Below, piece by piece: positions 11,509-44,595 of a DNA stretch of 64,000 nt. This DNA is from Nitrososphaerota archaeon (GTDB taxonomy: Archaea; Thermoproteota; EX4484-205; JAAOZP01): contig JAAOZP010000011.1 of the NCBI GenBank assembly GCA_011605725.1, forward strand, positions 96,001-160,000, in the 5' to 3' direction. Below the pieces are notes generated by a model. It saw nothing but the letters and a program-made list of their open reading frames with translations. It did no database searches and was not told where the DNA came from. The first letter of the stretch is position 1. Every line of letters starts with the position of its first letter. Made by a program: the position numbers and the translations under genes.

Positions 11509-11509
11509 A

Positions 11510-12655: not shown

Positions 12656-12657
12656 CA

Positions 12658-14415
12658 ATGTTCACGCTAGACGATAAAGTAGCAAGCGTTTTAAAAAAGT
12701 ATCCTTACAATATTTCCTTCAGAGTAAGGGATAACATTGTTTTCCTCCAGGGAGAGGTTGACAGCCACATGGAGTGGGTTGAAATAGGGCTTTCCATAGG
12801 CAGGATAAGAGGGGTTGAGGGGGTTGTGAATAAGATAACGTGGAGAGGCGCCTCAGGGAAGGAGGCTAGAGAGGAGTGGAGAAGAAGGGTTTTCGAAGAA
12901 AAGAGGAACGCTGTGGTCGGAGAGTACGACGTGGTCATAATAGGCGGGGGAGTCGTCGGAGCAGCCCTAGCTAGAGAGCTCTCGAAATACGAGCTTAAAA
13001 CAGCTCTCCTGGAGAAGTCTACGGATATTGCTGCCGGAACCACTAAGGCGAACAACGGCATGATTCACGCGGGCGTGGAGCCCTCCAGGGGTACTCTGAA
13101 AAGAATGCTTAACGTAAGGGGGAACGCTATGTACGGTAAGCTTGCTGAGGAACTGGGTTTCAGGTTTAACCGGCTGGGCAGCCTCTGGCTGGTCACTCCA
13201 AGGACGCTGGCGTCGTACAGGAAGTATCTGCCGGGTCTGCTTTACAACCTGGTGTTGAAACACGTTTTTCCCTGGGTGGTTAAGATTAAAGGCTTGGTGA
13301 ACGGGGTTAGGAGCATTAAAATCATAAGGGGCCGAAGGATTTTCGAGCTCGAGCCGTTCGCAACCAGGGATGCTGTGGCTGCAGTCTACATTCCTTCCAC
13401 GGCTGTAGTCGACCCGTATGAGGTGGCTGTTGCCCTCGCGGAAAACGCTGAGGCTAACGGTGTTGAGATTCATCTAGAGACTGAGGCCGTCGGCTTCATC
13501 AAGGATGGTAGTGTCATCAGGGGAGTCGTAACCAATAAGGGGGTTTTCCTATGCAGATACGTCGTAAACTCCGCAGGGCTTTACGCTGACGAGGTTGCTG
13601 CACTAGCCGGCTCAGAGGAGTACACTATCCACCCGAGGAAAGGAGTACTCCTGGTTTTTCACAGGGACACCGGGGTTTTCACCCGCCACTGTCTGGCTGA
13701 GATCATTCTCCCTCAGGATCCATACACCAAGGGTGGGGGTATAAACCCTACTGTCCACGGGAACGTGCTCTGGGGGCCGACGGCGGTCGAGGTCCCGGAT
13801 AAGGAGGACACGTCCGTTACAAGGGAGGAGATAGAGCATGTCTTGAACAAGTACTCAGGCATAGTTCCCGGGTTTCCGAGGGACAAGGTGATAAGGTATT
13901 TCGCAGGCGTAAGGGCGGCGACATTCACAGAGGACTTCGTCATAAGGCCTGCCAAATGGGTTAGGAACCTCCTACACGTAGCCGGAATACAGTCGCCCGG
14001 GCTCGCCGCCTCACCAGCCATAGCGGAATACGCTGTCGAGAAGCTGAGGGGAATGGGGCTGAGGCTCAAGCCGAAGACGGGCTTCAACCCCAGAAGGAGG
14101 CCAATGCCGAGGGCAGCCGACATGAGCCTTGAGGAGCTTGAGGAGAAGATAAGGATGGACCCCGCGTGGGGCAGGATCGTGTGCACCTGCGAATTCGTCT
14201 CAGAAGCTGAGATCGTGGAGGCTGTTCGAAGAGGCGCTAAGACCCTCGACGCTGTGAAGAGGCGTACTAGGGCAGGGATGGGGGAGTGTCAAGGGAGCTT
14301 CTGCACGCTTGAAACAGCTCTCATCCTGTCTAGGGAGACAGGCGTGCCTTTGGACATGCTTCTTAAGGAGGAGGGTAGGCTGTTCAACGGCTACGTCAGG
14401 GGTGAGCAGCCGTGA
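12658..14415 (+). CDS. GlpA-like FAD glycerol-3-phosphate dehydrogenase with N-terminal BON and C-terminal BFD-like [2Fe-2S] domains
   Basis: IIGGGVVG, TKANNGMIHAG, GIQSPGL, CTCE..RAGMGECQGSFC; BON pattern VFLQGEV..GVEGVVNKI; ATG 12658 follows the upstream stop. Confidence 0.85.
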   Translation: MFTLDDKVASVLKKYPYNISFRVRDNIVFLQGEVDSHMEWVEIGLSIGRIRGVEGVVNKITWRGASGKEAREEWRRRVFEEKRNAVVGEYDVVIIGGGVVGAALARELSKYELKTALLEKSTDIAAGTTKANNGMIHAGVEPSRGTLKRMLNVRGNAMYGKLAEELGFRFNRLGSLWLVTPRTLASYRKYLPGLLYNLVLKHVFPWVVKIKGLVNGVRSIKIIRGRRIFELEPFATRDAVAAVYIPSTAVVDPYEVAVALAENAEANGVEIHLETEAVGFIKDGSVIRGVVTNKGVFLCRYVVNSAGLYADEVAALAGSEEYTIHPRKGVLLVFHRDTGVFTRHCLAEIILPQDPYTKGGGINPTVHGNVLWGPTAVEVPDKEDTSVTREEIEHVLNKYSGIVPGFPRDKVIRYFAGVRAATFTEDFVIRPAKWVRNLLHVAGIQSPGLAASPAIAEYAVEKLRGMGLRLKPKTGFNPRRRPMPRAADMSLEELEEKIRMDPAWGRIVCTCEFVSEAEIVEAVRRGAKTLDAVKRRTRAGMGECQGSFCTLETALILSRETGVPLDMLLKEEGRLFNGYVRGEQP

Positions 14416-15653
14416 GGGACGCCACGGTGATAGGAGGGGGGCCTTCAGGTCTGGCTGCAGCCGTATGGCTTGCGGAGAAGGGTTACGACGTAGCGGTCGT
14501 CGAAGTGATGGGGGAGCTCGGCGGGATGTTGACGCAGTGCATTCACGATGGCTTTGGAACAAGGGTTTTCGGAGAAGCCCTTTCGGGGCCAGAGTTTTCA
14601 GAAAGGCTTGTGAAAAAGGCCCGGTTGCTCGGGCTCAGGACGTTTCTGAATACCTACGTGAAGGAGGTTAGGATCGGGAAGGAGTTTAAAGAGGTTGTTG
14701 CAGTCAGCCCGGCGGGGGTTCAGAGGCTTCAGACTAGGGTGATAGTCTACGCGATAGGCTGCAGAGAGAGGAACGGTTTTGAAATAAGGCTTGGCGGAGC
14801 AAGGCCGGCAGGGGTCTACACGGCTGGAATGGTTCAGAGGCTCGTAAACCTGTACGGGGTTCTCCCGGGGAGGAGGATCGTGATAATGGGCGGCGGCGAC
14901 GTCGGCATGATTGTAGCTAGACACCTCCACCTGGAGGGTGTGGAGAGCATCCTGATGGTTTTCCCAGAGGCTGGCTTCGCAGGGCTTCCGAGGAATGTTC
15001 AACAATGCATTCTAGACTTCGGAATCCCGTTCAGGCCCAGGACGGTTGTGAAAAAGGTAATCGGGAAAGAGAGGGTGGAAGGAGTCGTCTTAACCAGGGT
15101 TGATGAAAAGTGGAACCCTGTTGAGGGGACTGAGGAATTCCATGCTTGCGACACTGTTGTCCTCGCCCTAGGCTTAGTGCCCTACACCGGGGAGCTTAAG
15201 CTCGGGGTTAGAATGGATCCTGCAACCAGAGGCCCTGAGGTGAACGAGTTTTTCGAAACCAGTGTGCAAGGGGTTTTCGCCGTGGGGAACCTCGTCCAGG
15301 TTTTCGACTATGTTGACGACGCTTTTGAAACCGCATGCATAGCTGCCAGGGGTGTGGAAAAGTATTTGAACAGCGGGTTGAAGACGGCTCCGATAAGGCT
15401 TTCCCCAGGGGAAAACGTTAGGATGCTTACACCCCAGAGGGTTGAATGGGTTGACGATGCGGACGTGCCGGTGTTCCTGAGACCGGCTGTTGAGAAGGCT
15501 AATGTACGCATAGTGGTGAGGAACAGGGAGGGAAGGGTCCTCGGAGGATTCTTCAAGAGGTATGTTAGGCCTTCTACGCTTGAGAGAATAGAGGTTCCCA
15601 GAAGCATGCTAAGCAACCTGCAGGAGGTTTCGATAGATATTGCAGAGGATTGA
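14412..15653 (+). CDS. Pyridine nucleotide-disulfide oxidoreductase (partner of GlpA-like G3PDH)
   Basis: IGGGPSG, QCIHDGFG, GCRER, GGGDVG, TSVQGVFAVGN; GTGA overlap. Confidence 0.88.
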   Translation: MRDATVIGGGPSGLAAAVWLAEKGYDVAVVEVMGELGGMLTQCIHDGFGTRVFGEALSGPEFSERLVKKARLLGLRTFLNTYVKEVRIGKEFKEVVAVSPAGVQRLQTRVIVYAIGCRERNGFEIRLGGARPAGVYTAGMVQRLVNLYGVLPGRRIVIMGGGDVGMIVARHLHLEGVESILMVFPEAGFAGLPRNVQQCILDFGIPFRPRTVVKKVIGKERVEGVVLTRVDEKWNPVEGTEEFHACDTVVLALGLVPYTGELKLGVRMDPATRGPEVNEFFETSVQGVFAVGNLVQVFDYVDDAFETACIAARGVEKYLNSGLKTAPIRLSPGENVRMLTPQRVEWVDDADVPVFLRPAVEKANVRIVVRNREGRVLGGFFKRYVRPSTLERIEVPRSMLSNLQEVSIDIAED

Positions 15654-16002
15654 GCTTCTCTGCACCCGGTGCCCCAGGGGCTGCCTTCTAAGGGTTACTG
15701 CAACAGGGAGCAGAGTGGCTGTGGAGGGTAACGAGTGTCCAGTTGGCGAGAAGCACGGGGCCGAGGAGGCTTTGAACCCTAGGCGGACCGTCTCGACAAC
15801 TGTTAGGATAATTGGCGCGAGGCTTCCACGCCTTCCAGTAAGGACTTCTGAGCCGGTGTTGAAGAATAGGGTGAGGGATGTTGTTGCTGCGCTTAAGAAC
15901 ATTGCAGTAGAGGCCCCGGTTAAGGCGGGTCAGGTAATTCTTAAAAACGTTGCTGACACTGGAGTAGACATCATAGCTGAGAGGGATATGGAGAGGGCTT
16001 AG
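15640..16002 (+). CDS. DUF1667 family metal-binding subunit
   Basis: CTRCPRGC..GNECP..NPRRTVSTTV..LPVRT..APVKAG. Confidence 0.9.
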   Translation: MQRIELLCTRCPRGCLLRVTATGSRVAVEGNECPVGEKHGAEEALNPRRTVSTTVRIIGARLPRLPVRTSEPVLKNRVRDVVAALKNIAVEAPVKAGQVILKNVADTGVDIIAERDMERA

Positions 16003-16003
16003 C

Positions 16004-17506
16004 ATGAGCTATTTTCTCATACTGGATGTCGGAACCACCAACGTGAAGGCGCATGCTTTTTCGATTAATGGTGAAAACCTGCTTGAACTAGCGGAGAGGC
16101 TTCGGCCAAGCTATCCTAGGCCTGGATGGGTTGAAGAAGACCCGATGGACTTCATCATCAGGATTAGCAGACTCGTCGACATGTTTTTCGAAAAGCTTGG
16201 GAAACCGCTTGGAATAGGCTTGACAAACCAGCGGAGCAGCACCGTCTTATGGAGCAAGAAGTCTGGGGAGCCTCTTTACAACGCGATCACGTGGCAGGAC
16301 ACTAGGACCAAGGATATTGTAGAAGAGTTTTCCTCAAGGTTTCTAGTAAGCATGGGGAGGACACTGGGCAAGGCTTTCAACCTTCTCTCTAAGGCTTTTC
16401 CACCTTTAAAGGAGACAAGCAGGGGAGCCTACTTTGTTACACTTGCATACGTGTCGTTCGGAACAACACATTCCTCCATGCACCTAAGATGGCTCATCGA
16501 CAATGTTCCAGATGCGAGGCGCGCCGTTGAAAACGGTGAGGCTGTTTTCGGAACGATAGATTCATGGATCGCTTGGAACCTTACTGGCAGACATGTAACC
16601 GACTATACTAACGCGAGTGCCACAGGCCTGTTCGACTCTTTCAGCATGAAATGGAGCAGGAACATTTTAAGCATCGTAGGGGTTCCGAGAAGCATTCTTC
16701 CAACAATAGTTCCTAACGATGCTGCAATAGGCAGGGTTAAGGATTACGATGTTCCTCTTCTCACAATGATAGCTGACCAGCAGGCCTCACTTTACATGGC
16801 GGGTGTTTCCAAGGGTGTTGTGAAGATGACGAGCGGCACCGGAACATTCATAGATATGAATGTTGGGGAGAAGTGTATGGCTGGAGCGAGAGGACTCTAC
16901 CCGTTGATTGCACTCGCCACCAAGCGTAGAAACCTTTACCTGCTGGAGGGGAATGTTCTAACCTCAGGCTCAACGCTAGACTGGCTTATTGAAGTAGGGC
17001 TTATGAAAGACTATTCTGAGATACGTGAAGCCTTCGAGAAAACGGGGGAGGGCGGAATAGTGTTCATCCCCGCTCTCTCCGGGCTCGGAACACCCTATGT
17101 GAAGCCTGATGCAACAGGCATGATCCTTGGGATCACGAGGGGAACCAGGAGGGAAGACCTGATCCGAGGGGCTGTTGAGGGCGTGGCTATGCGCTGCGTG
17201 GAGATACTCGAGTATCTTGAGAAAACAACTGGAATAAGGGTACAGCGCGTAGTAGCCGACGGCGGGCTCTCTAAGAGCGACGACTTCCTCCGGACTGTTG
17301 CAAACTATTCTTCAAAGCTTGTCTTGAGACCAGTACACCTGAATGGCTCCGCCTACGGGACCTACATGCTGTGTAAGAACATATTGCTCGGAAAGGATCC
17401 TGTGGAAGCATGGGAAGAGCCTGCTGTCGAGAAGGCTTTCACCCCGGTTGAACCCAGGGGGGAGCTTATGGCACGCTGGACCAGAGCTTTGAGGAGGCTT
17501 CTTTAA
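16004..17506 (+). CDS. glpK: FGGY-family glycerol kinase (GK5-like, with insertion)
   Basis: LDVGTT, TNQR, WQDTR, GTIDSW, TDYTNASATG, DQQA, GTGTF, DGG. Confidence 0.85.
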   Translation: MSYFLILDVGTTNVKAHAFSINGENLLELAERLRPSYPRPGWVEEDPMDFIIRISRLVDMFFEKLGKPLGIGLTNQRSSTVLWSKKSGEPLYNAITWQDTRTKDIVEEFSSRFLVSMGRTLGKAFNLLSKAFPPLKETSRGAYFVTLAYVSFGTTHSSMHLRWLIDNVPDARRAVENGEAVFGTIDSWIAWNLTGRHVTDYTNASATGLFDSFSMKWSRNILSIVGVPRSILPTIVPNDAAIGRVKDYDVPLLTMIADQQASLYMAGVSKGVVKMTSGTGTFIDMNVGEKCMAGARGLYPLIALATKRRNLYLLEGNVLTSGSTLDWLIEVGLMKDYSEIREAFEKTGEGGIVFIPALSGLGTPYVKPDATGMILGITRGTRREDLIRGAVEGVAMRCVEILEYLEKTTGIRVQRVVADGGLSKSDDFLRTVANYSSKLVLRPVHLNGSAYGTYMLCKNILLGKDPVEAWEEPAVEKAFTPVEPRGELMARWTRALRRLL

Positions 17507-32319: not shown

Positions 32320-32715
32320 TTGAGAGACGAGGCTTTAAGATGGTTAAAGGAGGGGGTTTGGGACCTGGAGACAGCGAAGATACTGCATAACGCGGGACGA
32401 TATAATGCAGCCGCTTACTATTCGCACCAGGCTGCTGAGAAGGCCGCTAAGGCCCTTCTCTACCTTGTTAACGAGGCTGCCTGGGGTCACAGCGTGAGAA
32501 TACTGTTGGAAAGGTTTGCGGAGAAGAAGATGCTGATGGTCAACGAGCTTCTCCAATACGCTAGGGAGCTAGACAGACATTACATACCTTCAAGATATCC
32601 TAATGCGCATCCTGCAGGAACACCTCATGAAGCATATGACGAGAAAACGTCTTTGAAAGCCGTCGAAGCCGCGGAACGTTTAATCAGCTTCGCGAAGAGA
32701 TTCATCGAAACGTGA
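32320..32715 (+). CDS. HEPN-domain protein
   Basis: HQAAEKAAKA, GHS, LDRHYIPSRYP. Confidence 0.9.
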   Translation: MRDEALRWLKEGVWDLETAKILHNAGRYNAAAYYSHQAAEKAAKALLYLVNEAAWGHSVRILLERFAEKKMLMVNELLQYARELDRHYIPSRYPNAHPAGTPHEAYDEKTSLKAVEAAERLISFAKRFIET

Positions 32716-32727
32716 GGATGCGTACTC

Positions 32728-33132
32728 TTGCACGGCGTTGAGGATGTTGTGAAAAAGCTGGCTTCAAGATACAGGCTTACAGCAGTAATACTCTTCGGCT
32801 CTCATGCCAGGGGAGACTGGGGGCCCTGGAGCGACTACGACCTGCTAATAATAGGTGATTTTGAGGAAAAATATGTTGATAGAATAGGCGAGATTCTGGA
32901 CCTCCTCTCAGACATAAGGATTCCTGTGGAACCGCACCCCTATACTCTTCAAGAGGCTTTGCAGATGCTGGGTGAGGGAAACCCGCTTATAGTTGACGCT
33001 ATTGAGGAAGGCAGAGTGCTTTACAGGAGCGAGGACTACGATAGGCTGCTCGAAGCCTTCCGGAGGCTCAGGGAAAAAGGCATGCGGAGAAGCAACACAT
33101 CTATAATTCTGCCTGAGACAGGGGACGCTTAG
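32728..33132 (+). CDS. Minimal nucleotidyltransferase (MNT), HEPN partner
   Basis: LFGSHARGD....SDYDLLI. Confidence 0.9.
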   Translation: MHGVEDVVKKLASRYRLTAVILFGSHARGDWGPWSDYDLLIIGDFEEKYVDRIGEILDLLSDIRIPVEPHPYTLQEALQMLGEGNPLIVDAIEEGRVLYRSEDYDRLLEAFRRLREKGMRRSNTSIILPETGDA

Positions 33133-34221: not shown

Positions 34222-35556
34222 TTATACCCATCCCCTGGCCTTCATAGCTTCAACAACTCTTCTAACAGCAACAACATAGGCAGCCGTTCTAGGGTCAATA
34301 TTCTTATCCTTAAACTCCTTCAAGGCTTCAACAACCTCCCAGAAGGCTCTAGTCATCTTAGCGTCAAGCCTCCTGTAAACCTCCTCATAATCCCAATAAT
34401 ACCTTGAAAGATTCTGGACCCATTCGAAGTATGAGACAGTCACGCCACCAGCGTTAGCCAGGAAATCCGGGACTACGAAAATCCCCTTACTATGGAGAAT
34501 ATCATCGGCCTCAGGTGTCGTCGGACCGTTCGCGAGCTCCAGAACCAGTTTAGCCTTAATCCTGCTAGCATTTTTTCCAGTTATCTGGTTTTCAAGAGCA
34601 GCCGGGATCAGAATGTCAACCGGAAGCTCCAAAACCTCTTCGCTACTAATCTTCATGGAAGACTCATAATTGACAACACTCCCGGTTTCCGCCTTAACCC
34701 TGCTAACCCTGCTATAGGGTAGCCCGTCCTCGTTGAAAATTCCTCCCTTTGAATCGCTCACGGCAACAACCCTCACGTTTTTAAAAAGCCTCGTCGCCAG
34801 AAAATGCGCCAGCGAGCCAGCGTTACCATAGCCCTGAATCGCAACATTCACCACATCATCCCCGGGGGAAGCATCAGGAATATTCGAAAGCACGTGAGGA
34901 GGCATGTAAAGCCTGGACTCGTCAACCATAAGACCGAGCTCGAGAAACCTGGCAGCCTCCCTCAAGACAAACATGCCGCCTCTCGCAGTAGCATCCTCCC
35001 TACCCTTAGAACCCCCCGCGACAAGCAGCTTACCCGTAATAACCTCAGGCACATTATACCCAGTAATCACTGAAAACTCATCCATCATCCAAGTCATCAC
35101 CTGAGGATCAGTATAAACATCCGGAGCAGGAATATCCTTCAACGGACCCAGAAAGCCAGCTAGAGCCCTAACATAAGCCCTAGCAAGTCTTTCCTTCTCG
35201 CTTGCACTCAGCTTTTTCGGATCGCAGATAACTCCACCCTTCCCACCACCATAAGGTAAATTCAGAAGAGCACACTTCCAAGTCATCAAGGCAGCTAAGG
35301 CTTTAATTGCATCCAGGTTCTCATCGGGGTGCCATCTAATTCCACCCTTAGTTGGACCTAAAGCATCATTATACTGAACACGGAAACCCGTGAAGATCCT
35401 GACTGTTCCATCATCCATTTTGACAGGCATGTTTACTATGAGCGTTCTAATCGGTTCCTTGAGTAACGCGAGCGTCGCCCCGTCGAGCCCCAGAATCTTG
35501 GCGCATTTATCGATTTGTTTCTGAATATTCTTGAAAGTGCTGTACTTCCCAGTCAT
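34222..35556 (-). CDS. gdhA: Glutamate dehydrogenase
   Basis: GPTKGGIR, MTWK, GGGKGG, DIPAPD, QGYGNAG, ELANGP, PDFLANAGGV..SYFEW. Confidence 0.95.
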   Translation of the reverse strand: MTGKYSTFKNIQKQIDKCAKILGLDGATLALLKEPIRTLIVNMPVKMDDGTVRIFTGFRVQYNDALGPTKGGIRWHPDENLDAIKALAALMTWKCALLNLPYGGGKGGVICDPKKLSASEKERLARAYVRALAGFLGPLKDIPAPDVYTDPQVMTWMMDEFSVITGYNVPEVITGKLLVAGGSKGREDATARGGMFVLREAARFLELGLMVDESRLYMPPHVLSNIPDASPGDDVVNVAIQGYGNAGSLAHFLATRLFKNVRVVAVSDSKGGIFNEDGLPYSRVSRVKAETGSVVNYESSMKISSEEVLELPVDILIPAALENQITGKNASRIKAKLVLELANGPTTPEADDILHSKGIFVVPDFLANAGGVTVSYFEWVQNLSRYYWDYEEVYRRLDAKMTRAFWEVVEALKEFKDKNIDPRTAAYVVAVRRVVEAMKARGWV

Positions 35557-35631: not shown

Positions 35632-35756
35632 TATCGGAAAATTTTTCCAATGTATTCTCGCCCAGCATCTAGGGGTAGCATCTTTTGATAATGCCTTAAG
35701 AATAATTAAAGCGAAAAAGATAAAAATAGGATATTTTTTTCCGATAAACTTATATA
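35632..35756. promoter_or_regulatory. Divergent gdhA/glutamate synthase promoter with two operator-like sites
   Basis: GGAA-N5-TTCC (35636-35648) and GGAT-N6-TTCC (35729-35742); TATCGGAAAA/TTTTCCGATA inverted pair; TATA ttatata 35750-35756. Confidence 0.55.
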
Positions 35757-35788: not shown

Positions 35789-37201
35789 ATGAATACCGGT
35801 GTAAATAGGCTTAACTCCACATTCATGCGGTATCATATAGAAACTAGAGAGGCTCAATGGAGATTCAAGCTTCCTCCGAAGTTCAGGGTTAAGATATACA
35901 ATAACTGCGTAAACGTCCAGGAATGCGTTCAAGCCTGCGTCTACAATGTTCACAGGGTCGGGGAAGACGGGAGGGTCGCGGAGCCTGTCGAAGAATTATG
36001 CCGGGGGTGCCACCGGTGCACGCTCTCATGTCCGAAGGGGGCAATATGCGTAGAATTGAACCCTGCATTTGAGAGGCTTGGAGACTCGTACTTTACACCC
36101 GAGAGAATTGAGAACATTTTCTTTGAGGCTGAGACAGGCAGGGTTCCAGTTTCAGGAGCAGGGTACGGTGGGGCTTTCAGCGGAAGAGGGTTTGACAGCT
36201 TTTGGTTTGACTTCTCGGAGATAGTTAGGCCTACTAGAGATGGTATACATGGCAGGGAGTATATTTCGACCTCTGTAGACTTAGGTAGGAAGCCGCACAA
36301 CCTATTTTTCGACGACTCGGGCAACCTCGTTTCAAAGGTTCCGGAAAATATTGAGATTCCTATTCCAATCATTCTTGATGCCCCCCTATCCTCCTCTTCG
36401 AAAAGTAATCTTAATCTAGCTTTGGCAAAATCCGCCAGTATCCTCAATACTTTTGCAATAGTTAGTGCAGACGATTATTCGGATGATTTATCCGACTATG
36501 GTTCCAACCTAATTCTAAGGATTGGTCCAAATGAAGCGAGGAAAGTTGCTGGGCTGATTAAAACATCCCCGATCGTCGAGCTGGATTACGCGGATAATGC
36601 CCTGGATGAGAACAGAATTACAGATGATTTGAGGTTTGTGAGGAAGGTTAACCCCGCAGCATTGGTTTCAGCCAGATTCCTCGGTGAAGACAGCGTAACG
36701 GAAAAATCTGAGGCATCAGTTAAGGTTGGCGTCGACATGATACATCTCCATGTTGAAGACGAGACTGTGGTGCATGATCCTGATGTTGTGAAGAGAATTA
36801 TTCGGGGTACGCATACGCGTCTTGTCGAGAGAGGCATTAGAGACCAAGTTTCAATAGTTTTCAGCGGCGGGATCGCTGAGGCCGCGCATGTTCCAAAATC
36901 AATAATTCTCGGAGCCGATGCTGTTGCAATAGGCCTTGCCTACGAGATTGCATTAGGATGCAAGGTCTGCCACGGGAGCAAGCATGAAGCCGGTTGTCCA
37001 TTGAAAGTTGAAGAAGGCGATGTGGAGCTTGCTTCCCAAAGGATTGTAAACCTTGTTGGGTCTTGGAGAGACCAGTTGCTGGAGGTCTTAGGAGGGATGG
37101 GCTTGCGGGAAGTTAGAAGGTTGAGAGGCGAGCTTGGAAGGGCAATTTTCTTTGAGGAGCTTGAGATGAAAATATTTGGTGATGAAGATGATTCAGAGTA
37201 G
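35789..37201 (+). CDS. Glutamate synthase FMN-domain paralog with ferredoxin domain, degenerate
   Basis: CRGCHRCTLSCP, SEIVRPTRDG, IRDQVSIVFSGGI, LGADAV; lacks the QGAKPG motif; start may be ATG 35825. Confidence 0.8.
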   Translation: MNTGVNRLNSTFMRYHIETREAQWRFKLPPKFRVKIYNNCVNVQECVQACVYNVHRVGEDGRVAEPVEELCRGCHRCTLSCPKGAICVELNPAFERLGDSYFTPERIENIFFEAETGRVPVSGAGYGGAFSGRGFDSFWFDFSEIVRPTRDGIHGREYISTSVDLGRKPHNLFFDDSGNLVSKVPENIEIPIPIILDAPLSSSSKSNLNLALAKSASILNTFAIVSADDYSDDLSDYGSNLILRIGPNEARKVAGLIKTSPIVELDYADNALDENRITDDLRFVRKVNPAALVSARFLGEDSVTEKSEASVKVGVDMIHLHVEDETVVHDPDVVKRIIRGTHTRLVERGIRDQVSIVFSGGIAEAAHVPKSIILGADAVAIGLAYEIALGCKVCHGSKHEAGCPLKVEEGDVELASQRIVNLVGSWRDQLLEVLGGMGLREVRRLRGELGRAIFFEELEMKIFGDEDDSE

Positions 37202-38735
37202 GCTGGCTTTTAAAGTTCCGGAAGTAAAGCCTGCAGTCTCAAAGGAGCCCTTCAGGATAGGGAAGTTCGAGGTGCTCTTAGATAGGTCTAAATGCACAGC
37301 CTGCGGTCTCTGTGCTCAAGTGTGCCCCACATACATAGGGTCAGCGATCGTCGAATACGAGGCGTTCAAAAAACCCAGCGGTATCCTACGTGTAACGAAC
37401 GCGAGGGCGATGTGCGAGGGCTTAGTTTGTCGGAAGTGTGTAGAATCATGCCCTACAAAGGCTTTAACGGTTAGGATTAACCCTCAATACCTTATTCTTG
37501 GAGATAAGCGTTGGACGGCAGACCTGATTCTTTCGACATGGGAGCAAGCAGAATCCGGAAAGCCTTCCGGAAGATACGAGTATAGAGTGGGTGACTCGGG
37601 AGGGGGCTTCGACAAGATAAGATTCGATTTCGAGCTTGAGGAAGAAGTCAGTATTAATGAGATTTTTGAGGCAGAAGATCGCGATACTTCAATAGTCCTG
37701 AACCGGAGGAGGGATGGGAGGCCTGAGATAAGTATTCCTATCCCTGTTTACAGTGCAGACATGTCCTTCGGCTCAATAAGTCTGAGGGTTATGGTTGCGA
37801 GAGCAATTGCAGCCAAGGCTTGGAATACTTTCACGAGCACTGGTGAAGGAGGGTATCCTAATGAGCTTATACCATTTAAAGACCATGTGATAACGCAGGT
37901 TGCTACCGGCCACTTTGGCGTAAACGCCGAGACTGTTAAGAGGGCCAGGATCGTCTGCTTGAAGTATGCTCAGGGGGCTAAGCCAGGTTTAGGAGGGCAT
38001 CTTCTCGCTGACAAGGTTACTCCAAAGGTTGCGGAGATTAGGGAGGTCGTGCCTTACATAAGCCTTTTCTCTCCATTCCCATTCCACAACGTTTACTCTG
38101 TCGAGGACCACTACAGGCATGTCCAGCTGATCAAGGATATTAATCCCAAGGCACTGGTCTCCGTAAAGGTCTCCACCCCGATAGACGTTGACATGGTTGC
38201 CATAGGAAGCTACTATGCGGGAGCAAATATTCTTCAGGTAGATGGAGGCTTCGGTGGAACAGGGGCTGCTCCAGACATAGCAAAGAAGAATATTGCGATG
38301 CCTATTGAGTACGCTATTCCAATGGTTCATAACTATCTGGTCAGAGAAGGCGTTAGGGATGAGATGGTGATCATGGCGAGCGGCGGGATAAGGACAGCTT
38401 TCGACGTAGCTAAGATAATCGCTCTTGGGGCTGACGGGGCAGTAATTGGTACAAGCGAGCTCGTAGCTCTTGGGTGTAAGAGATGTGGGAACTGCGAGAG
38501 GGGAAGAGGATGCCCATCGGGAATAGCTACCACTGACCCTGCTTTAAGCCTCTTAATTGATCCGGAGTGGGGGGCTCAAAGGATAATCAACATGTATTGC
38601 TCTTGGAAGAAGCAGTGGAACTATATTCTTTCAAAGCTTGGCTTAAGCAGCATTAGGGAGCTCCGTCCAAAGAATGAGGTGAAGTTCAGAAAAGGTCGTT
38701 TCAACCACCTTGTTCACCTAGACCACTTAAGGTGA
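37176..38735 (+). CDS. Glutamate synthase FMN-binding subunit (GltB2-like) with ferredoxin domain
   Basis: MSFGSIS, TGEGG, QVATGHFG, KYAQGAKPGLGGHL, DGGFGGTGAA, CKRCGNC..CP.GIAT. Confidence 0.92.
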   Translation: MVMKMIQSRLAFKVPEVKPAVSKEPFRIGKFEVLLDRSKCTACGLCAQVCPTYIGSAIVEYEAFKKPSGILRVTNARAMCEGLVCRKCVESCPTKALTVRINPQYLILGDKRWTADLILSTWEQAESGKPSGRYEYRVGDSGGGFDKIRFDFELEEEVSINEIFEAEDRDTSIVLNRRRDGRPEISIPIPVYSADMSFGSISLRVMVARAIAAKAWNTFTSTGEGGYPNELIPFKDHVITQVATGHFGVNAETVKRARIVCLKYAQGAKPGLGGHLLADKVTPKVAEIREVVPYISLFSPFPFHNVYSVEDHYRHVQLIKDINPKALVSVKVSTPIDVDMVAIGSYYAGANILQVDGGFGGTGAAPDIAKKNIAMPIEYAIPMVHNYLVREGVRDEMVIMASGGIRTAFDVAKIIALGADGAVIGTSELVALGCKRCGNCERGRGCPSGIATTDPALSLLIDPEWGAQRIINMYCSWKKQWNYILSKLGLSSIRELRPKNEVKFRKGRFNHLVHLDHLR

Positions 38736-41233
38736 TGACTATGAATAGTTTTGAAAGGGTTGCAGAGGGCGGGTGCGGCGTAATTGGTGTAGCTTCATCA
38801 ATCCCGATAAAAGGCAGGTTCCTATTAAGGCCTCTTGTACAGACGCATAACAGGGGTAATGGCAAGGGCGGTGGCATAGCTGCAGTAGGTCTTTCAGCAG
38901 AGCAGCTCGGCGTCTCCAAGAGAGTTTTAGAGGAATGCTACCTGGTTCAAATAGCCTACCTAGATTCAAACGTGAGGGAAGACGTGGAAGCAAGTTTCAT
39001 CAAACCCTTCATGAGGGTTGAGTACTTTGAGAAGCTCCCAACGTTAGGGGACTACAGGAGTATTGGCTTGGAGGTGAAGCCTCCGGAAGTCTGGCGCTAT
39101 TTCCTCAGGGTTGACGAGGACGTGTTGAAAAAGTTTGCCGAGGACAACGGTATGCAGGCGCTTGACCCGAGGGATGTGGAGGATGAGTTCATATATAGGA
39201 ACAGTTTCGCTCTGAACAGGAAGCATTATTCTTCAACAGGCTTGAAAAAGGCTTTTGTCCTCTCTCATGGGAGAAACATGATTGTCCTAAAAATAGTAGG
39301 CTATGCTGAGCAGGTCATAAAATACTACATGCTTGAAGATCTTGAGGCCCACATCTGGATTGGTCACCAGAGGTATCCTACTAAGGGGAAGGTTTGGCAT
39401 CCTGGAGGGTCTCACCCGTTCATAGGGTTGAATGACGCCCTTGTTCACAACGGCGACTTTGCAAACTACTACTCTATAACGGAATATCTTAGGCAGAGGA
39501 ATATTTACCCGCTTTTCCTGACTGACACGGAGGTCGCTGCCCTATACTGGGACCTCTTGACAAGAATATACCGATACCCGTTGGAATACGCTATTGAGGC
39601 GCTTGCCCCAACGACTGAAAGAGACTTTGCAATGCTGCCGGATGAGAAGAAAAAGATTTACAAGGTTATTCAGGCCACACATATCCACGGCTCTCCTGAC
39701 GGCCCATGGTTCTTCATAATTGCGAGGAACGATGTTAGAAACAGGGTTTTCCAGCTTATCGGCATAACGGACACGTCTATGCTCAGGCCGCAGGTCTTTG
39801 CGCTTCACGACGGTGATGTTAAAATCGGGATAATCGCCTCTGAAAGGCAAGCGATAGACGCTATGCTTGAAGAGCTGTCTAAGCATGACGAAAGGATTCA
39901 TCCAATGGCTGATGCTTACTGGTATGCGAGGGGAGGAAGCTATACTGACGGCGGAGCATTTATTTATACGGTGGATGAGTATGGAGGCCTTGTTTGCACA
40001 AATAAGTTTGGCAAGAGAGTAGCTGTTGAGGCAAGCACCCCTAGAGTTGAGTTTAACGGCGGAGGATGGAGACCCGAGATTGATGAGAAAACCATTAAGA
40101 GGCTTGGCCCTGAGGAACTTTTTAAACTGGTTTCAAAGAGTATTGGAGACTGGTCTATTCGCGAGGTTGTTTCCTTAATAGAGGCCCTTGAGGAACATGG
40201 TATGAAAGGGAGTGAGGAAATGCTGAAGGCAATAAGCGTGTTAACACTGCTAATCGACAGAAGGTACCCGTCTAGGGTGAGTAGGAACCGTCTAATCCCG
40301 CTTTTCGAGAAGGCTGTTTCCAAGATACTTAGCAGTGTGCCGTTAATAGAGGCTAATTTTCAGGGCAGGCTTCAACGGGTCGACTGGGATTCTAGAAGAA
40401 TGCTTGTAAAGCCGTCTGCAGCCAATAGTGTTTTAGTGATAGATGCTCATGATTTTCCACCTGAGGGTGATGAGGGTGTTTGCAATCTTCTTGAGAACGC
40501 TTACCGGTTGGGATGGAGAAGGCTCATTGCGTATAACTTCATAGGGCAGAGGAATTTCGGCGCGGGCCTCGTTGCCAGGGATGGTGTTAGAATAGACGTG
40601 TACGGCAGGCCTGGCGATTGTCTCGCAGCCTTCGCAGACGGGCCGGAGTTCCATGTTCACGGGAGTGTGCAGGATTCGGTTGCATACTGCTTCAGGTCTG
40701 GAAGGATCGTTGTGTATGGGGATGCAGGCAAGGCTTTCGAGTACGGCGCTAAAGGCGGTGTCGCTTTCATCCTAGGGGATCTTGTAGACAGACCTTTGAT
40801 AAACGCTGTAGGAAGCGCTACTGCTGTGATAAACGGCTCATGCATGGACTACATGGGTGAATCGTTCATGGCTGCCAAGGGCTTCATAATACTGAACGGC
40901 ATCAGGTTTGACGGAAAGGGCAGGCTCGTGGAGAAGGAAACGCCCTATCACGGTGGAAACCTCCTTCCCCTAGCGGCGGCTGGCGCAGTGTACATTAGGG
41001 ATCCTAGGGGGACTGTTGGTGAAGACCAGCTTAATGGTGGTAGGATTGAAAGTATAACGGGCAAGGATTGGGAGAAGATATTACCGCTGTTAAGGGAGAA
41101 CGAGAAGCTGTTCGGCATAAGGGTTGAAGACCTTCTGAGGGTCAACGGGGTGTTGAGAATGCCGGAGGAAGTTTACAGGAAGGTGGTGCCCGTTCAGGTT
41201 GCTGCGCTAACCAGATATGAAAGGGGTGATTAA
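38732..41233 (+). CDS. Glutamate synthase Ntn-amidotransferase plus GXGXG domain fusion (GltB1+GltB3-like)
   Basis: EGGCGVIG (Ntn Cys after a short propeptide), HQRYPT, HPF, HNGD, TDTE; C-terminal beta-helix GXGXG repeats. Confidence 0.9.
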   Translation: MMTMNSFERVAEGGCGVIGVASSIPIKGRFLLRPLVQTHNRGNGKGGGIAAVGLSAEQLGVSKRVLEECYLVQIAYLDSNVREDVEASFIKPFMRVEYFEKLPTLGDYRSIGLEVKPPEVWRYFLRVDEDVLKKFAEDNGMQALDPRDVEDEFIYRNSFALNRKHYSSTGLKKAFVLSHGRNMIVLKIVGYAEQVIKYYMLEDLEAHIWIGHQRYPTKGKVWHPGGSHPFIGLNDALVHNGDFANYYSITEYLRQRNIYPLFLTDTEVAALYWDLLTRIYRYPLEYAIEALAPTTERDFAMLPDEKKKIYKVIQATHIHGSPDGPWFFIIARNDVRNRVFQLIGITDTSMLRPQVFALHDGDVKIGIIASERQAIDAMLEELSKHDERIHPMADAYWYARGGSYTDGGAFIYTVDEYGGLVCTNKFGKRVAVEASTPRVEFNGGGWRPEIDEKTIKRLGPEELFKLVSKSIGDWSIREVVSLIEALEEHGMKGSEEMLKAISVLTLLIDRRYPSRVSRNRLIPLFEKAVSKILSSVPLIEANFQGRLQRVDWDSRRMLVKPSAANSVLVIDAHDFPPEGDEGVCNLLENAYRLGWRRLIAYNFIGQRNFGAGLVARDGVRIDVYGRPGDCLAAFADGPEFHVHGSVQDSVAYCFRSGRIVVYGDAGKAFEYGAKGGVAFILGDLVDRPLINAVGSATAVINGSCMDYMGESFMAAKGFIILNGIRFDGKGRLVEKETPYHGGNLLPLAAAGAVYIRDPRGTVGEDQLNGGRIESITGKDWEKILPLLRENEKLFGIRVEDLLRVNGVLRMPEEVYRKVVPVQVAALTRYERGD

Positions 41234-41234
41234 C

Positions 41235-42032
41235 ATGCACATCATAGTTTTAATAAAGCAGGTTCCAGACTCCAGAGAATATGTCCGCATAAGGGAGGAC
41301 GGAACTCTAGACAGGGAGAGGGTAAGAGCAGTAATAAACGATTGTGATAAAAACGCATTGGAGGCAGCGCTCCAGCTTAAGGAAAAATTCGGGTCGAAAA
41401 TAACTGTGGTCTCCATGGGACCGCCTAAGGCAGAGGATGCTCTCAAGGAGGCTTTAGCCATGGGTGCTGATGAGGCAATCCTAATCTCCGACAGGAGGCT
41501 TCGAGGATCAGACACGTTGGCAACATCCTACGTACTTTACAAGGCGATCGAAAGACTTGGCCACTATGATCTAATCATATGCGGAATAGAGTCGAGCGAC
41601 GGCGGTACTGCCCAAGTAGGCCCTGAGCTTGCCGAGTTTCTCGGAATACCTCAAGCAACATTTGTAGATGAGTTTAAGGTTATTGGCGGATACGTTGAAG
41701 CCAAGAGACTGGTAGAAGGAGGCTACGAGAAGCTCAGGATAAAGATGCCAGTGCTCCTGACGATCATGAAGAACGCTAACAATCCAAGGGTCACAACTTT
41801 TTCAGGGATTCTAAAGGCTGTTAAGAAGCAGGTTGTGACGTGGACGATTGACGATGTTGGGGCTGAGGAAAAGAAGGTAGGATTAGCAGGCTCCCCCACT
41901 AAGATAATGAAGGTTGAGAAGTTGAGTTTTCAGAGGAAAAGGCTTATGATTGAAGGAGAAACAGCTGATGAAGTCGTTGATAATCTTTTGAAGAGGCTGG
42001 TCGAGGACGGGGTGATTCGTGGAGGATACTGA
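41235..42032 (+). CDS. etfB: Electron transfer flavoprotein beta subunit
   Basis: KQVPD, NALEAAL, SMGPP, GSDTLATS, DGGTAQVGP, GLAGSPT. Confidence 0.93.
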   Translation: MHIIVLIKQVPDSREYVRIREDGTLDRERVRAVINDCDKNALEAALQLKEKFGSKITVVSMGPPKAEDALKEALAMGADEAILISDRRLRGSDTLATSYVLYKAIERLGHYDLIICGIESSDGGTAQVGPELAEFLGIPQATFVDEFKVIGGYVEAKRLVEGGYEKLRIKMPVLLTIMKNANNPRVTTFSGILKAVKKQVVTWTIDDVGAEEKKVGLAGSPTKIMKVEKLSFQRKRLMIEGETADEVVDNLLKRLVEDGVIRGGY

Positions 42033-42035
42033 AAG

Positions 42036-43061
42036 ATGACCGGATATTCAGGAGTCTGGGTTTATGCGGAGCATCGGAATGGCGTCATCAGCAAGAATAC
42101 CCTTGAGATACTTGGCAAAGGGAGAGAGCTGGCTGACAAGCTTTGCGTTGAACTGTCAGCAGTATTATTCGGCTGCAATGTTAGCTCGTCTGCAAACGTG
42201 TTAACGATTTACGGTGCTGACAAGGTTTATGTCACGGATGATGAAAAGCTTAGAAACTATAAGACTCGTACATATGCAAGGCTGATGACAGAGCTTATTT
42301 TAAAGCATAAGCCGGAGATAGTGCTGTTCACCGCCAGCACTACAGGCAGAGACTTGGCTCCGAGAGTGGCGGCAAGGCTTAGAACAGGATTAACTGCAAA
42401 CTGCATTGATCTAGACATTGGGGACTTTGAAGACAAGGAGACCGGCAGGAGATACGAAAAGATCCTTTACCAAATCGTTCCAGCATTCGGTGGAAACGTT
42501 GTCGCAACAATAGTTACGCCCTTCAATCGACCTCAAATGGCTACTGTCAGGCCGGGAGTGTTCCCACCTCCGGAAAAAATATTTAGGAAAGGGGAGATTG
42601 TTCTCTTTAAGCCTGAGGCAATAGATGTGGATGAGGAGGTGGAAGTCTTGGAGGTCAACAGGAGTCAGGAGGAATCTAGTCTTGAGAATGCGAAAATAGT
42701 TGTTGGAGGAGGGTTGGGCGTAGGCGGCCCAGAGGGTTTCAAACTCTTAAAGGAGCTTGCCGACTCCTTGGGGGGATGCGTCGGGGTTACCCGTCCAGTA
42801 ACAGATGCCGGGTGGATGCCGTATGATTCCATGATAGGTGAGAGCGGTAGAACAATAAGGCCAGACCTCTACATAGCGTGCGGCATTTCTGGAGCGTTGC
42901 ACCATATGATTGGCGTCAGGGGAAGCAGGAAAATAGTCGCGATCAATAATGATCCTAAGGCACCCATATTTGAGGCTGCGGACTATATTGTAATAGGAGA
43001 CTTATTTCAAATAGTCCCGAAGCTAACTGAGAAAGTGAAGAAGTATGTCGGAGCTTTATGA
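42036..43061 (+). CDS. etfA: Electron transfer flavoprotein alpha subunit
   Basis: [52 protein letters not shown]. Confidence 0.93.
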
Positions 43062-44595
43062 TGCAATTATTGTTCTAGACTACGGGGGACAATATTGCCA
43101 TCTGATAGGAAGAAGGATAAGAGAGCAGGGAGTATACTCGGAAATAGTCCCCTGGGAAATAAAAGCCGAAGAAATCAGGCTTATAAGCGAAAAAATGAAT
43201 GTTAAAGGCTTAATATTGTCAGGAGGACCAGCGAGCGTTTTCGATGCGGAGGCTCCGAAACTTGATGCAAACATTCTGAATTTAGGGTTGCCTGTTCTAG
43301 GCCTCTGCTACGGCCATCAGCTCTTGGCCCACATTGTTGGTGGAAAGGTCAGACCTGCTGAAAGAAGGGAATATGGTGCAACTTATGTTACCATAGACAG
43401 GCCTGTCGGCGTGTTAAAGGGGCTGGGTAGAAAGGAAAGAGTGTGGATGAGCCATAGTGATGCTGTTTTCTCAGTCCCGGAAGAATATGAGGTGCTGGCG
43501 CATTCTGAAAACTGTCCCGTAGCAGCCTTCGGGCACAGGGAGAAACCGGTCTACGGTTTGCAATGGCACCCTGAAGTAGTCCACACGGAGAATGGAGTCC
43601 TAATGCTCAGAAACTTCCTGTTTGAAGTATGCGGCTGCAAAGCCAATTGGAAGGTTGAGAACCTCGTGAATAAGATTATTGAGGAAATCAGGTTTGAGAC
43701 AGGCGGTAGCAAGGCCATAATTGCCCTAAGCGGCGGCGTGGATTCAAGCGTCACAACGGCGCTAGCAGCCAAGGCTATTGGAAACAGGCTTACAGCGGTT
43801 TTCGTCGACCACGGGTTTATGCGAGAGAACGAGCCTGAGTCCGTGGAGAATTTTTTCAAAGGCATGGGGATAAACCTTATGGTGATAGATGCGAAAGACC
43901 GTTTTCTGAAGAAGCTTCGAGGTATAATTGACCCTGAGATGAAGAGGAAGATTATAGGTGAAGAATTCATAAGGGTTTTCGAAGAAGTTGCTGAAAAAAT
44001 CGGGGCGGAATGTTTAATCCAGGGAACCATTTACCCGGATAGGATTGAATCGGGATTTCGAAGGTTTTCAGACAAGATAAAAACGCATCACAATGTAGCT
44101 GGGCTTCCGGCACGTGTAAAGTTTAGAAAGATAGTTGAACCCCTGCGGGACCTATACAAGGATGAGGTTAGAAGAATTGGGGAAGCCCTTGGGCTGCCGA
44201 GGGAGCTGGTTTACAGACAGCCCTTCCCGGGCCCGGGTCTTGCTGTAAGGATTACCGGTGAGGTAACCAGGGAGAAGGTTGAGGTAGTGAGGAAAGCAGA
44301 CAGGATTGTTAGGGAGGAGGTTGAGAGAAGCGGTTTGAAGGAAAGACTCTGGCAATATTTCGCAGTCCTGACTAACACGATGGCTACGGGCGTTAAGGGT
44401 GATGCCCGGGCCTACGGCTATGTTGTCGCAGTCAGGATCGTCGAAAGCAGTGAAGCCATGACTGCAAGCTTCGCTAAAATACCCTACGAAGTGTTGGAGA
44501 GTATCTCTACAAGGATAACCAACGAGATACCTGAGGTTGCAAGGGTTGTTTACGACATTACTCACAAGCCGCCTGCAACAATAGAGTGGGAGTGA
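43045..44595 (+). CDS. guaA: GMP synthase (glutamine-hydrolysing), fused GATase and ATPPase
   Basis: [41 protein letters not shown]. Confidence 0.96.

What the first reader, a model, noticed from the sequence alone, without database searches (positions are those of the whole stretch)
35789..43061. Split glutamate synthase coupled to EtfBA: possible electron-bifurcating GOGAT
Seen: two ferredoxin-FMN subunits, a GATase-GXGXG fusion, etfB and etfA form one contiguous operon, with no gltD, acyl-CoA dehydrogenase or fixCX in the window. Established: GOGAT normally uses GltD/NAD(P)H or ferredoxin, and anaerobe ETFs (the DGxTAQVGP type) bifurcate NADH electrons to ferredoxin and a higher-potential acceptor. 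Glutamate formation is clearly more positive than NADH. Inference: ETF replaces GltD and may couple nitrogen assimilation to ferredoxin reduction. I do not know of a described complex like this.
Basis: partly seen in the sequence, partly recalled or inferred. Interest (0 to 1): 0.82.

Follow-up and report, generated by a model that had tools for sequence, protein, structure and literature searches.

The report
Flavoprotein-fed split glutamate synthase operon
A hot-spring archaeon pairs a three-piece nitrogen-assimilating enzyme (glutamate synthase) with its own electron-transfer flavoprotein, a pairing found in several archaeal lineages for which I found no paper; this copy has lost the one arginine known to be needed for energy-saving electron bifurcation, so it probably just feeds the enzyme electrons from NAD(P)H.

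Summary
Observation confirmed. Five abutting genes encode a pseudo-barrel/ferredoxin subunit, an intact FMN-synthase/ferredoxin subunit, a GATase-GXGXG subunit, EtfB and EtfA; guaA follows. The genome (93% complete, Brockarchaeota-like) shows no GltD, acyl-CoA dehydrogenase or FixCX, and its second ETF has its own Ldh-like partner. The linkage recurs in seven lineages outside the genus, including Asgard archaea. The linked ETFs form one clade (UFBoot 99) and are absent where relatives lack this synthase. Close synthases without an adjacent ETF also exist. The loss marks a nested subclade with co-varying changes at both flavin sites, while the deeper-branching members keep the Arg. Best reading: a dedicated, probably non-bifurcating two-FAD ETF that replaces GltD (0.45). 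Bifurcation in this copy is about 0.17, and more plausible in the Arg-keeping relatives. Complex prediction gave only weak support. The scan noted this operon before on other genomes; the Arg loss was not in the notes I saw.

The parts
35789..37201 (+). Subunit A: N-terminal ferredoxin-like domain (first motif lacks one Cys: C40/C46/C50; second complete: C71/74/77/81) plus a degenerate GltS barrel without the synthase motifs; reduced C-terminal Cys set (C391, C394, C403). Probable stand-in for the non-catalytic central domain and an electron relay.
   Evidence: Pfam PF01645 weak (49 bits), PF04898 hit and Fer4; 28% identical to subunit B with catalytic motifs deleted or replaced; TIM-barrel fold in a low-confidence model, pLDDT 56
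37176..38735 (+). Subunit B: 2x[4Fe-4S]-type ferredoxin domain plus an intact FMN/2-oxoglutarate synthase domain with a four-Cys cluster motif (C434/437/440/446)
   Evidence: PF01645 298 bits; MSFGS, TGEGG, KxAQGAKPG, VEDH, VKV and GGTG motifs align to solved GltS and are invariant or nearly so in 19 homologues
38732..41233 (+). Subunit C: class II glutamine amidotransferase (short propeptide, then Cys15 nucleophile; HNRG, HQRY, HNGD kept) fused to the GXGXG beta-helix
41235..42032 (+). EtfB, group-2-like: keeps D93, T94, D122, G123, T125, R87, G91 and SPT (A. fermentans numbering); changed: G90R, D124G, Y37C, P36D, Q119E, F89L
42036..43061 (+). EtfA: bifurcating-site Arg146 replaced by Val148; ET-FAD site keeps R253, S270, Y279, H290 but has Q266M, Q269E, Q289H
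43045..44595 (+). guaA, glutamine-dependent GMP synthase, overlapping etfA by 17 nt; probably co-transcribed; not part of the redox module
   Evidence: NF000848, 711 bits; also follows the synthase directly, with no etf between, in a Bathyarchaeia locus (L013)
34222..35556 (-). Glutamate dehydrogenase, divergently transcribed from the operon
   Evidence: same arrangement in L008, L009, L015, L016
35557..35788 (.). AT-rich divergent intergenic region; TTATATA at 35750-35756 is a candidate archaeal TATA box for the operon (inference, not tested)
   Evidence: sequence read

Best explanation
The three GltB-like genes form one glutamine-dependent glutamate synthase: subunit C hydrolyses glutamine, subunit B condenses ammonia with 2-oxoglutarate and reduces the imine at FMN, and subunit A supplies the central pseudo-barrel and an extra Fe-S relay. 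The co-encoded ETF is its dedicated electron input and takes the role of GltD. It accepts a hydride from NAD(P)H at the beta-FAD and passes single electrons through the shuttle alpha-FAD (or directly) to the ferredoxin domains and on to FMN. In this lineage the ETF has lost the Arg needed to make the very low-potential semiquinone and has remodelled both flavin pockets, so it most likely sends both electrons to the synthase without reducing ferredoxin, as the two-FAD ETF of C. propionicum acryloyl-CoA reductase appears to do. Shown: gene order, motifs, clade, co-occurrence, residue changes. Inferred: complex formation, flavin content, the pyridine nucleotide used, the electron path and the absence of bifurcation.
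For: Catalytic motifs are intact. glnA is in the genome, and ETF-less homologues sit beside glnA, amt or an AsnA-like gene. Direct B13-etfB adjacency is seen in five other species of the genus, in G002 and in L047/48, L049, L050, L051/59, L060, L061. Linked ETFs are monophyletic, UFBoot 99, with the Val-type nested at 100. In 26 genomes of the class, the orthologous EtfA (57% identity or more) occurs only in genomes that have this synthase, and G021 keeps only a decayed etfA remnant beside gdh. No ACAD, FixCX or GltD was found, and the second ETF has its own Ldh-like gene. G123, D93/T94, R87/G91 and SPT are kept, so beta-FAD and NADH binding are plausible (PMC12630350, PMC9232219). Arg146 to Val: R205A in Ldh-EtfAB loses bifurcation but keeps NADH:DCPIP activity (PMC9232219), and R140Q/M in EtfABCX reduce no ferredoxin (PMC10734219). 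Complex prediction: weak support, ipSAE 0.38 against best control 0.00; runs agree in at least 74% of contacts; partner pLDDT at least 71. The mark was reached by 58 of 80 solved complexes and 2 of 110 mismatches, but at 0.60 or under by only 7 solved complexes and both mismatches, so such a pass is more often wrong than right unless likely beforehand.
Against: Nine loci with close synthases (52-67% identical in subunit C) have no adjacent etf (L013, L014, L085-L089, L101, L102), and no EtfA was found in the L013 genome (completeness not given), so the enzyme type can run without ETF. Co-loss may be a single deletion of a contiguous block, and kin are not independent. In R. palustris ETF, neutral residues at this Arg lowered nucleotide binding and stability (PMC8958531), so beta-FAD occupancy is not certain. 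No expression or biochemical data exist.
Confidence: 0.45

Rival explanations
1. One reading: this ETF bifurcates NADH electrons, one to the synthase and one to ferredoxin. A new Arg at EtfB position 90, or other co-varying changes, would substitute for the lost EtfA Arg.
For: The overall reaction is exergonic for most assumed potentials, about 0 to -31 kJ per turnover at NADH -320 mV (potentials from my own knowledge). Group-2-like placement and G123 kept. Precedent: ET-FAD reduces a ferredoxin-like FixX cluster (PMC13761266), and Ldh-EtfAB bifurcates with pyruvate, a fairly low-potential acceptor (PMC9232219).
Against: The essential Arg is absent (PMC9232219, PMC10734219, PMC8958531). Position 90 lies in the NAD-binding loop (87RXFXG91, PMC9232219), and I could not show that it reaches flavin N5. 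The V/R co-variation may be a single ancestral event. GltS FMN is more than 130 mV below known ET-FAD SQ/HQ couples (PMC8097209, PMC13761266). Two FADs do not prove bifurcation (C. propionicum, PMC5861303).
Confidence: 0.17
2. The synthase takes electrons from free reduced ferredoxin through its own Fe-S domains, and etfBA is merely co-regulated or hitch-hiking in a glutamine/nitrogen gene block, serving some other acceptor.
For: Nine loci have the same three-gene synthase with no adjacent etf. guaA and other amidotransferases also join the block. Only a few synthase positions distinguish linked from unlinked copies.
Against: The linked ETF clade was found beside this synthase at every locus with enough upstream DNA to tell. 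Downstream genes vary (guaA, OCD-like, DAP-DH-like, NAD synthase) while etfBA stays fixed. No unassigned classical partner was found in the genome. ETF and subunit C distances track each other (Spearman 0.73-0.84; shared ancestry alone could give this).
Confidence: 0.2
3. The ETF has become a canonical-like one-FAD (plus AMP, or empty) shuttle that carries electrons from a flavoprotein dehydrogenase (the Ldh-like enzyme on contig C16, or the GlcD-like or glycerol-3-phosphate dehydrogenase in this window) to the synthase.
For: Arg loss impairs beta-site nucleotide binding in RpaETF (PMC8958531). A group-2-like ETF in F. nucleatum works canonically between Ldh and Bcd (PMC12630350). Candidate dehydrogenases are present.
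Against: G123 is kept, whereas the canonical-like F. nucleatum ETF has Phe there. The NADH-loop residues and SPT are conserved across the clade. Lactate-level electrons (about -190 mV, my knowledge) would run uphill to FMN.
Confidence: 0.1
4. The complex runs catabolically, oxidising glutamate to 2-oxoglutarate and ammonia with NAD+ by confurcation with reduced ferredoxin, as Ldh-EtfAB does for lactate.
For: Arg-keeping members share a QxGL(S/T)G ET-site variant with A. woodii LctC. Some loci have amino-acid catabolic neighbours (OCD-like in L050, DAP-DH-like in L049).
Against: The glutaminase site is fully conserved, gdh lies next door and already does this reaction, and confurcation also needs the lost Arg.
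Confidence: 0.05

Closest known systems
NADPH-glutamate synthase GltB/GltD (Azospirillum 1EA0, 2VDC, 6S6S; 7MFM) and ferredoxin-GltS (Synechocystis 1LLW)
   Same: Same four domain types (class II GATase, pseudo-barrel, FMN synthase, GXGXG); synthase motifs align
   Different: Split into three genes in a different order; two fused ferredoxin domains; four-Cys cluster motif beside FMN instead of the three-Cys [3Fe-4S] motif; no GltD; an ETF is co-encoded
Split archaeal-type GltS ORFs (noted in review PMC8097209); ETF-less three-gene versions in L013, L086-L089, L101, L102
   Same: Same three subunits; subunit C 60-67% identical
   Different: No adjacent etfBA; often beside glnA, amt or an AsnC regulator
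Bifurcating ETF complexes: Bcd-EtfAB (4KPU, 5OL2), CarCDE (6FAH), Ldh-EtfAB (7QH2), Fix/EtfABCX (7KOE)
   Same: Best PDB matches of both ETF subunits; G123, D93/T94, NADH loop, SPT, R253/S270/H290 kept; ET-FAD to ferredoxin-like domain to flavin has a precedent in FixX/FixC
   Different: Partner is a glutamate synthase; Arg146 to Val, D124G, G90R, Q266M, Q269E, Q289H
Acryloyl-CoA reductase-EtfAB of Clostridium propionicum (two FADs, apparently non-bifurcating; PMC5861303)
   Same: Group-2-like ETF proposed to work as a plain NADH input; NCBIfam AcrA/AcrB are among the top below-cut-off hits
   Different: Different partner; its loss of bifurcation was ascribed to an insertion blocking ferredoxin (PMC9232219), whereas here the Arg is lost

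Membership tests
Glutamate synthase (GltS) | Class II amidotransferase with N-terminal Cys nucleophile and Gln-binding motifs | tested here: met
   Cys15 after a short propeptide; HNRG, HQRY, HNGD invariant or nearly so
Glutamate synthase (GltS) | FMN/2-oxoglutarate synthase barrel with Fe-S Cys motif | tested here: met
   PF01645 298 bits; motifs align to 7MFM
Glutamate synthase (GltS) | Central pseudo-barrel and GXGXG domain | tested here: met
   GXGXG over cut-off; subunit A is a degenerate barrel with a PF04898 hit just under cut-off; its role as central domain is inferred
Glutamate synthase (GltS) | Gln + 2-OG to 2 Glu activity | not testable with these tools
   needs an assay
NAD(P)H-GltS (GltBD) | GltD subunit | tested here: not met
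   no PF14691 match over cut-off in the 93%-complete genome
Bifurcating (group 2) ETF | EtfB zipper DGDTAQ with small residue Gly123 | tested here: met
   D122, G123, T125, A126, Q127 kept; D124 is G (D or E in 95% of bifurcating ETFs, PMC8958531)
Bifurcating (group 2) ETF | NADH loop 87RXFXG91, D93/T94 and SPT | tested here: met
   R87, G91, D93, T94 and SPT kept; F89L and G90R are variants
Bifurcating (group 2) ETF | EtfA Arg at N5 of the bifurcating FAD (RPXFGG; 99% conserved; essential for bifurcation) | tested here: not met
   Val148 aligns to Arg146 of 4KPU and to the Arg of 7KOE, 6FAH, 5OL2, 7QH2; 17 of 120 homologues have Val, all in this subclade
Bifurcating (group 2) ETF | ET-FAD site Arg253, Ser/Thr270, His290 | tested here: met
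   all three kept; the flanking Gln266, Gln269 and Gln289 are replaced
Bifurcating (group 2) ETF | Phylogenetic placement with group 2 rather than canonical group 1 | tested here: met
   falls with Fix-, ACAD- and Ldh-linked anaerobe ETFs, apart from two canonical proteobacterial ETFs (UFBoot 93-97; 46 sequences, sparse references)
Bifurcating (group 2) ETF | Two FADs, and NADH-dependent ferredoxin reduction coupled to a high-potential acceptor | not testable with these tools
   needs purified protein
Canonical (group 1, AMP) ETF | Bulky or acidic residue at 123 (DDDxNQ type) | tested here: not met
   Gly123 present
FixABCX/EtfABCX, Bcd/Car-EtfAB, Ldh-EtfAB | Adjacent fixCX, acyl-CoA dehydrogenase or ldh gene | tested here: not met
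   the Ldh-like gene belongs to the other ETF on contig C16

The most novel reading that the evidence does not exclude
The ETF-glutamate synthase clade is an undescribed ETF-partner class. The deeper-branching, Arg-keeping members (Asgard and other archaea) are true electron-bifurcating glutamate synthases that couple nitrogen assimilation to ferredoxin reduction. The Val-type subclade of this window has either switched bifurcation off or rebuilt it with an Arg from the other subunit, which gives a natural matched pair for testing what makes a flavin bifurcate.
Probability: 0.25. Interest if true: 0.85.

Novelty: new variant of a known kind. Interest (0 to 1): 0.6.

Why it matters
The electron donors of split archaeal glutamate synthases are largely uncharacterised. 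An ETF input would be a third solution besides GltD and ferredoxin, and would add an amidotransferase to the short list of ETF partners. This ETF also lacks an Arg that is 99% conserved in bifurcating ETFs and present in 447 of 449 canonical ones, yet it is conserved as a lineage, with co-varying changes at both flavin sites. Comparing Val-type and Arg-type members on the same partner enzyme would directly test the role of that Arg in crossed flavin potentials. It also warns that annotating bifurcation from the DGxTAQVGP motif alone is unsafe.

Tried and rejected
Literature: four searches and the Brockarchaeota and Culexarchaeia papers gave no description of an ETF-glutamate synthase complex. 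The library lacks most subscription papers, and Garcia Costas 2017 was not held, so I could not check whether its ETF subgroups mention this linkage. RNA evidence: no RNA holder was listed; this is no evidence either way. The AlphaFold model of subunit A was low confidence (pLDDT 56) and matched generic TIM barrels, GltS among them; it is used only for fold class. The sigma-70 promoter and terminator scan was at chance level and does not suit an archaeon. A phylum-wide search found this subunit C type in only 7 of 401 sampled genomes, so it added little. The JGI records behind L086, L087 and L047 could not be searched as genomes, so 'no ETF' there means 'not adjacent'. Contig-length matching of protein hits is a proxy for linkage, not proof, and one length was ambiguous. 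The nearest EtfA outside the clade that I checked (P0049, L123) has no synthase nearby, and P0087 has an acyl-CoA dehydrogenase; these set the clade boundary, so about six of the 'top 50' EtfA lie outside it. In the subunit C tree ETF-linked copies are not one clade and the backbone is poorly supported, so I do not claim an order of gains and losses. Position 149 was off by one and was corrected to 148. N-methylglutamate synthase was considered from memory and not tested; the glnA/amt/gdh context favours GOGAT. The tools gave no coordinates, so whether EtfB Arg90 reaches the flavin N5 or an NADPH 2'-phosphate could not be checked.
Full report
Observation. The five ORFs are present as stated and abut or overlap. 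The chain continues into guaA, and glutamate dehydrogenase is divergent. The closest relatives are titled Ca. Brockarchaeota, Thermoproteota or Crenarchaeota MAGs, so I infer a Brockarchaeota-like archaeon. In the genome (2.2 Mb, 93% complete) I found no GltD-type Fe-S domain over cut-off, no acyl-CoA dehydrogenase and no FixC or FixX. There is one glnA. A second ETF on contig C16 lies directly upstream of an Ldh/GlcD-like gene and keeps the usual Arg and DGDT motif.

The synthase. Subunit B carries every synthase motif I checked, aligned to solved GltS, plus eight ferredoxin Cys and a four-Cys motif beside the FMN site. Subunit C has the class II amidotransferase nucleophile and binding motifs fused to GXGXG. 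Subunit A is a 28% paralogue of B in which the synthase motifs are deleted or replaced. It has a weak hit to the GltS central-domain model, and the central domain of full-length GltS is a truncated barrel possibly derived by duplication (PMC8097209). Its structural role is an inference; earlier scan notes reached the same idea. ETF-less homologues lie next to glnA, amt or an AsnA-like gene, which supports nitrogen assimilation.

Linkage. The order A-B-C-etfB-etfA is seen in five other species of the genus, in G002 of another family (etfB split over two contig ends) and in L047/48, L049, L050 (Ca. Heimdallarchaeota by the source's name), L051/59, L060 and L061 (L060 is cut off upstream of subunit B). 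The gene after etfA varies. Among 26 genomes of the class, the orthologous EtfA occurs only where this synthase occurs: seven genomes have both, and two incomplete genomes have the synthase at a contig end with no orthologous EtfA found. G021 retains only a frameshifted etfA remnant beside gdh. G025 has a different, two-gene synthase near gdh with no adjacent ETF. These genomes are kin, and a block deletion removes all the genes at once, so this is suggestive and not statistical. In a concatenated EtfA+EtfB tree of 46 pairs, the synthase-linked ETFs form one clade (UFBoot 99) among group-2-like ETFs, sister to an ACAD-linked group. Against an obligate role, nine loci have the same three-gene synthase with no adjacent etf, and one such genome gave no EtfA match.

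Does it bifurcate? I mapped residues onto A. fermentans ETF. EtfB keeps Gly123, which separates two-FAD from AMP-type ETFs (PMC12630350), along with D93/T94, the NADH-loop R87/G91 and SPT (PMC9232219). EtfA has Val148 in place of Arg146. That Arg is 99% conserved in bifurcating ETFs (PMC10279923). R205A in Ldh-EtfAB abolishes bifurcation and confurcation but keeps NADH:DCPIP activity (PMC9232219). R140Q and R140M in T. maritima EtfABCX reduce no ferredoxin (PMC10734219). Neutral residues in R. palustris ETF impair nucleotide binding (PMC8958531). Of 120 EtfA homologues, 17 have Val; all 17 also have Met266 and His289, and all 103 with Arg have Gln at both positions. The Val type is a nested clade (UFBoot 100), so this may be one ancestral remodelling, not repeated co-evolution. 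The deeper-branching linked ETFs (L047, L049, L050) keep the Arg and have DGNT.

Energetics. With assumed potentials from my own knowledge (Gln + 2-OG / 2 Glu about -60 to -140 mV), full bifurcation gives about 0 to -31 kJ per turnover at NADH -320 mV and is marginal at -280 mV. The cofactor ladder is less friendly: GltS FMN is about -270 mV with 2-OG bound (PMC8097209), while measured ET-FAD SQ/HQ couples are -36 to -136 mV, and +20 mV in AvFix (PMC13761266). Gln266 was calculated to stabilise the reduced ET flavin (PMC10279923). Its loss, and the added Glu269, would be expected to lower the ET-FAD potential, which suits a low-potential acceptor and leaves less driving force for bifurcation. 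This step is inference.

Binding. One prediction with EtfA domain II, EtfB, FAD and subunit B as partner gave weak support: ipSAE 0.38 against best control 0.00, runs agreeing in at least 74% of contacts, partner pLDDT at least 71. The mark was reached by 58 of 80 solved and 2 of 110 mismatched pairs, but at 0.60 or under by only 7 solved complexes and both mismatches. No interface was returned, EtfA domain I was left out, and the job differed from the calibration. It moves my odds only slightly. Four of nine subunit B positions conserved in linked but not unlinked copies lie in or at the edge of its ferredoxin domain; the numbers are small.

Verdict. The operon is real and conserved. A dedicated ETF input to a split glutamate synthase is likely (about 0.75 summed over mechanisms). 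For this copy a non-bifurcating NAD(P)H input is the best single reading (0.45), ahead of hitch-hiking (0.2), bifurcation (0.17), a one-FAD shuttle (0.1) and reverse confurcation (0.05). It works like GltD joined to GltB, built from a group-2 ETF. It fails one defining test for a bifurcating ETF, so I do not file it as one. I found no paper describing the pairing. The scan has noted the operon before on other genomes; those notes are not evidence, and the Arg loss and the two subtypes were not in the lines I was shown.

Noticed in passing
G021:C13:47966-48120 (L103:5973-6126): Frameshifted etfA remnant about 360 bp from the gdh start; the synthase genes and etfB are gone, which suggests a recent deletion of the block.
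   Followed up: partly
L120:2297-5346 (G025:C45): A different two-gene glutamate synthase (GATase; GXGXG-ferredoxin-FMN fusion) lies near gdh in a genus member that lacks the ETF-linked operon; matches of similar length occur in G005-G007.
   Followed up: partly
G000:C16:23285-26492 (L018:8286-11496): Second etfBA with intact Arg and DGDT motif, followed by an Ldh/GlcD-like FAD oxidoreductase: a candidate confurcating Ldh-EtfAB in an archaeon, widespread in the class.
   Followed up: partly
window 10090-17506: GlcD-like FAD oxidase, CCG/Fe-S protein, glycerol-3-phosphate dehydrogenase-like protein with BFD domain, Pyr_redox_2 protein and FGGY kinase in one cluster.
   Followed up: no
window 35789-37201, residues 40-50: The first ferredoxin motif of subunit A lacks its second Cys in all archaeal copies, with or without ETF, but is complete in the actinobacterial L014: possibly a [3Fe-4S] cluster.
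   Followed up: partly
L047:3080-3523, L049:2952-3407, L087:2116-2634, L101:2102-2566, L102:2451-2927: An AsnC/Lrp regulator is divergent from the synthase operon in many lineages; in this window gdh holds that position.
   Followed up: no
L049:11022-13595 and L050:7844-8923: Genes after etfA include a diaminopentanoate-dehydrogenase-like gene with a further PF01645 protein on the opposite strand, and an ornithine-cyclodeaminase-fold gene.
   Followed up: no
L123:3187-4998: Stand-alone group-2-like etfBA with no adjacent partner, in the group nearest the clade (one member named Nanoarchaeota); a dihydroorotate-dehydrogenase-like fusion lies 2.5 kb away on the other strand.
   Followed up: no
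window 32320-33132: HEPN-like and minimal nucleotidyltransferase-like pair (read from the translation) beyond gdh, conserved in relatives: a probable toxin-antitoxin module.
   Followed up: no
L013:6239-7941: Subunit B is split by a frameshift in its ferredoxin domain in this Bathyarchaeia assembly (assembly error or true break).
   Followed up: no
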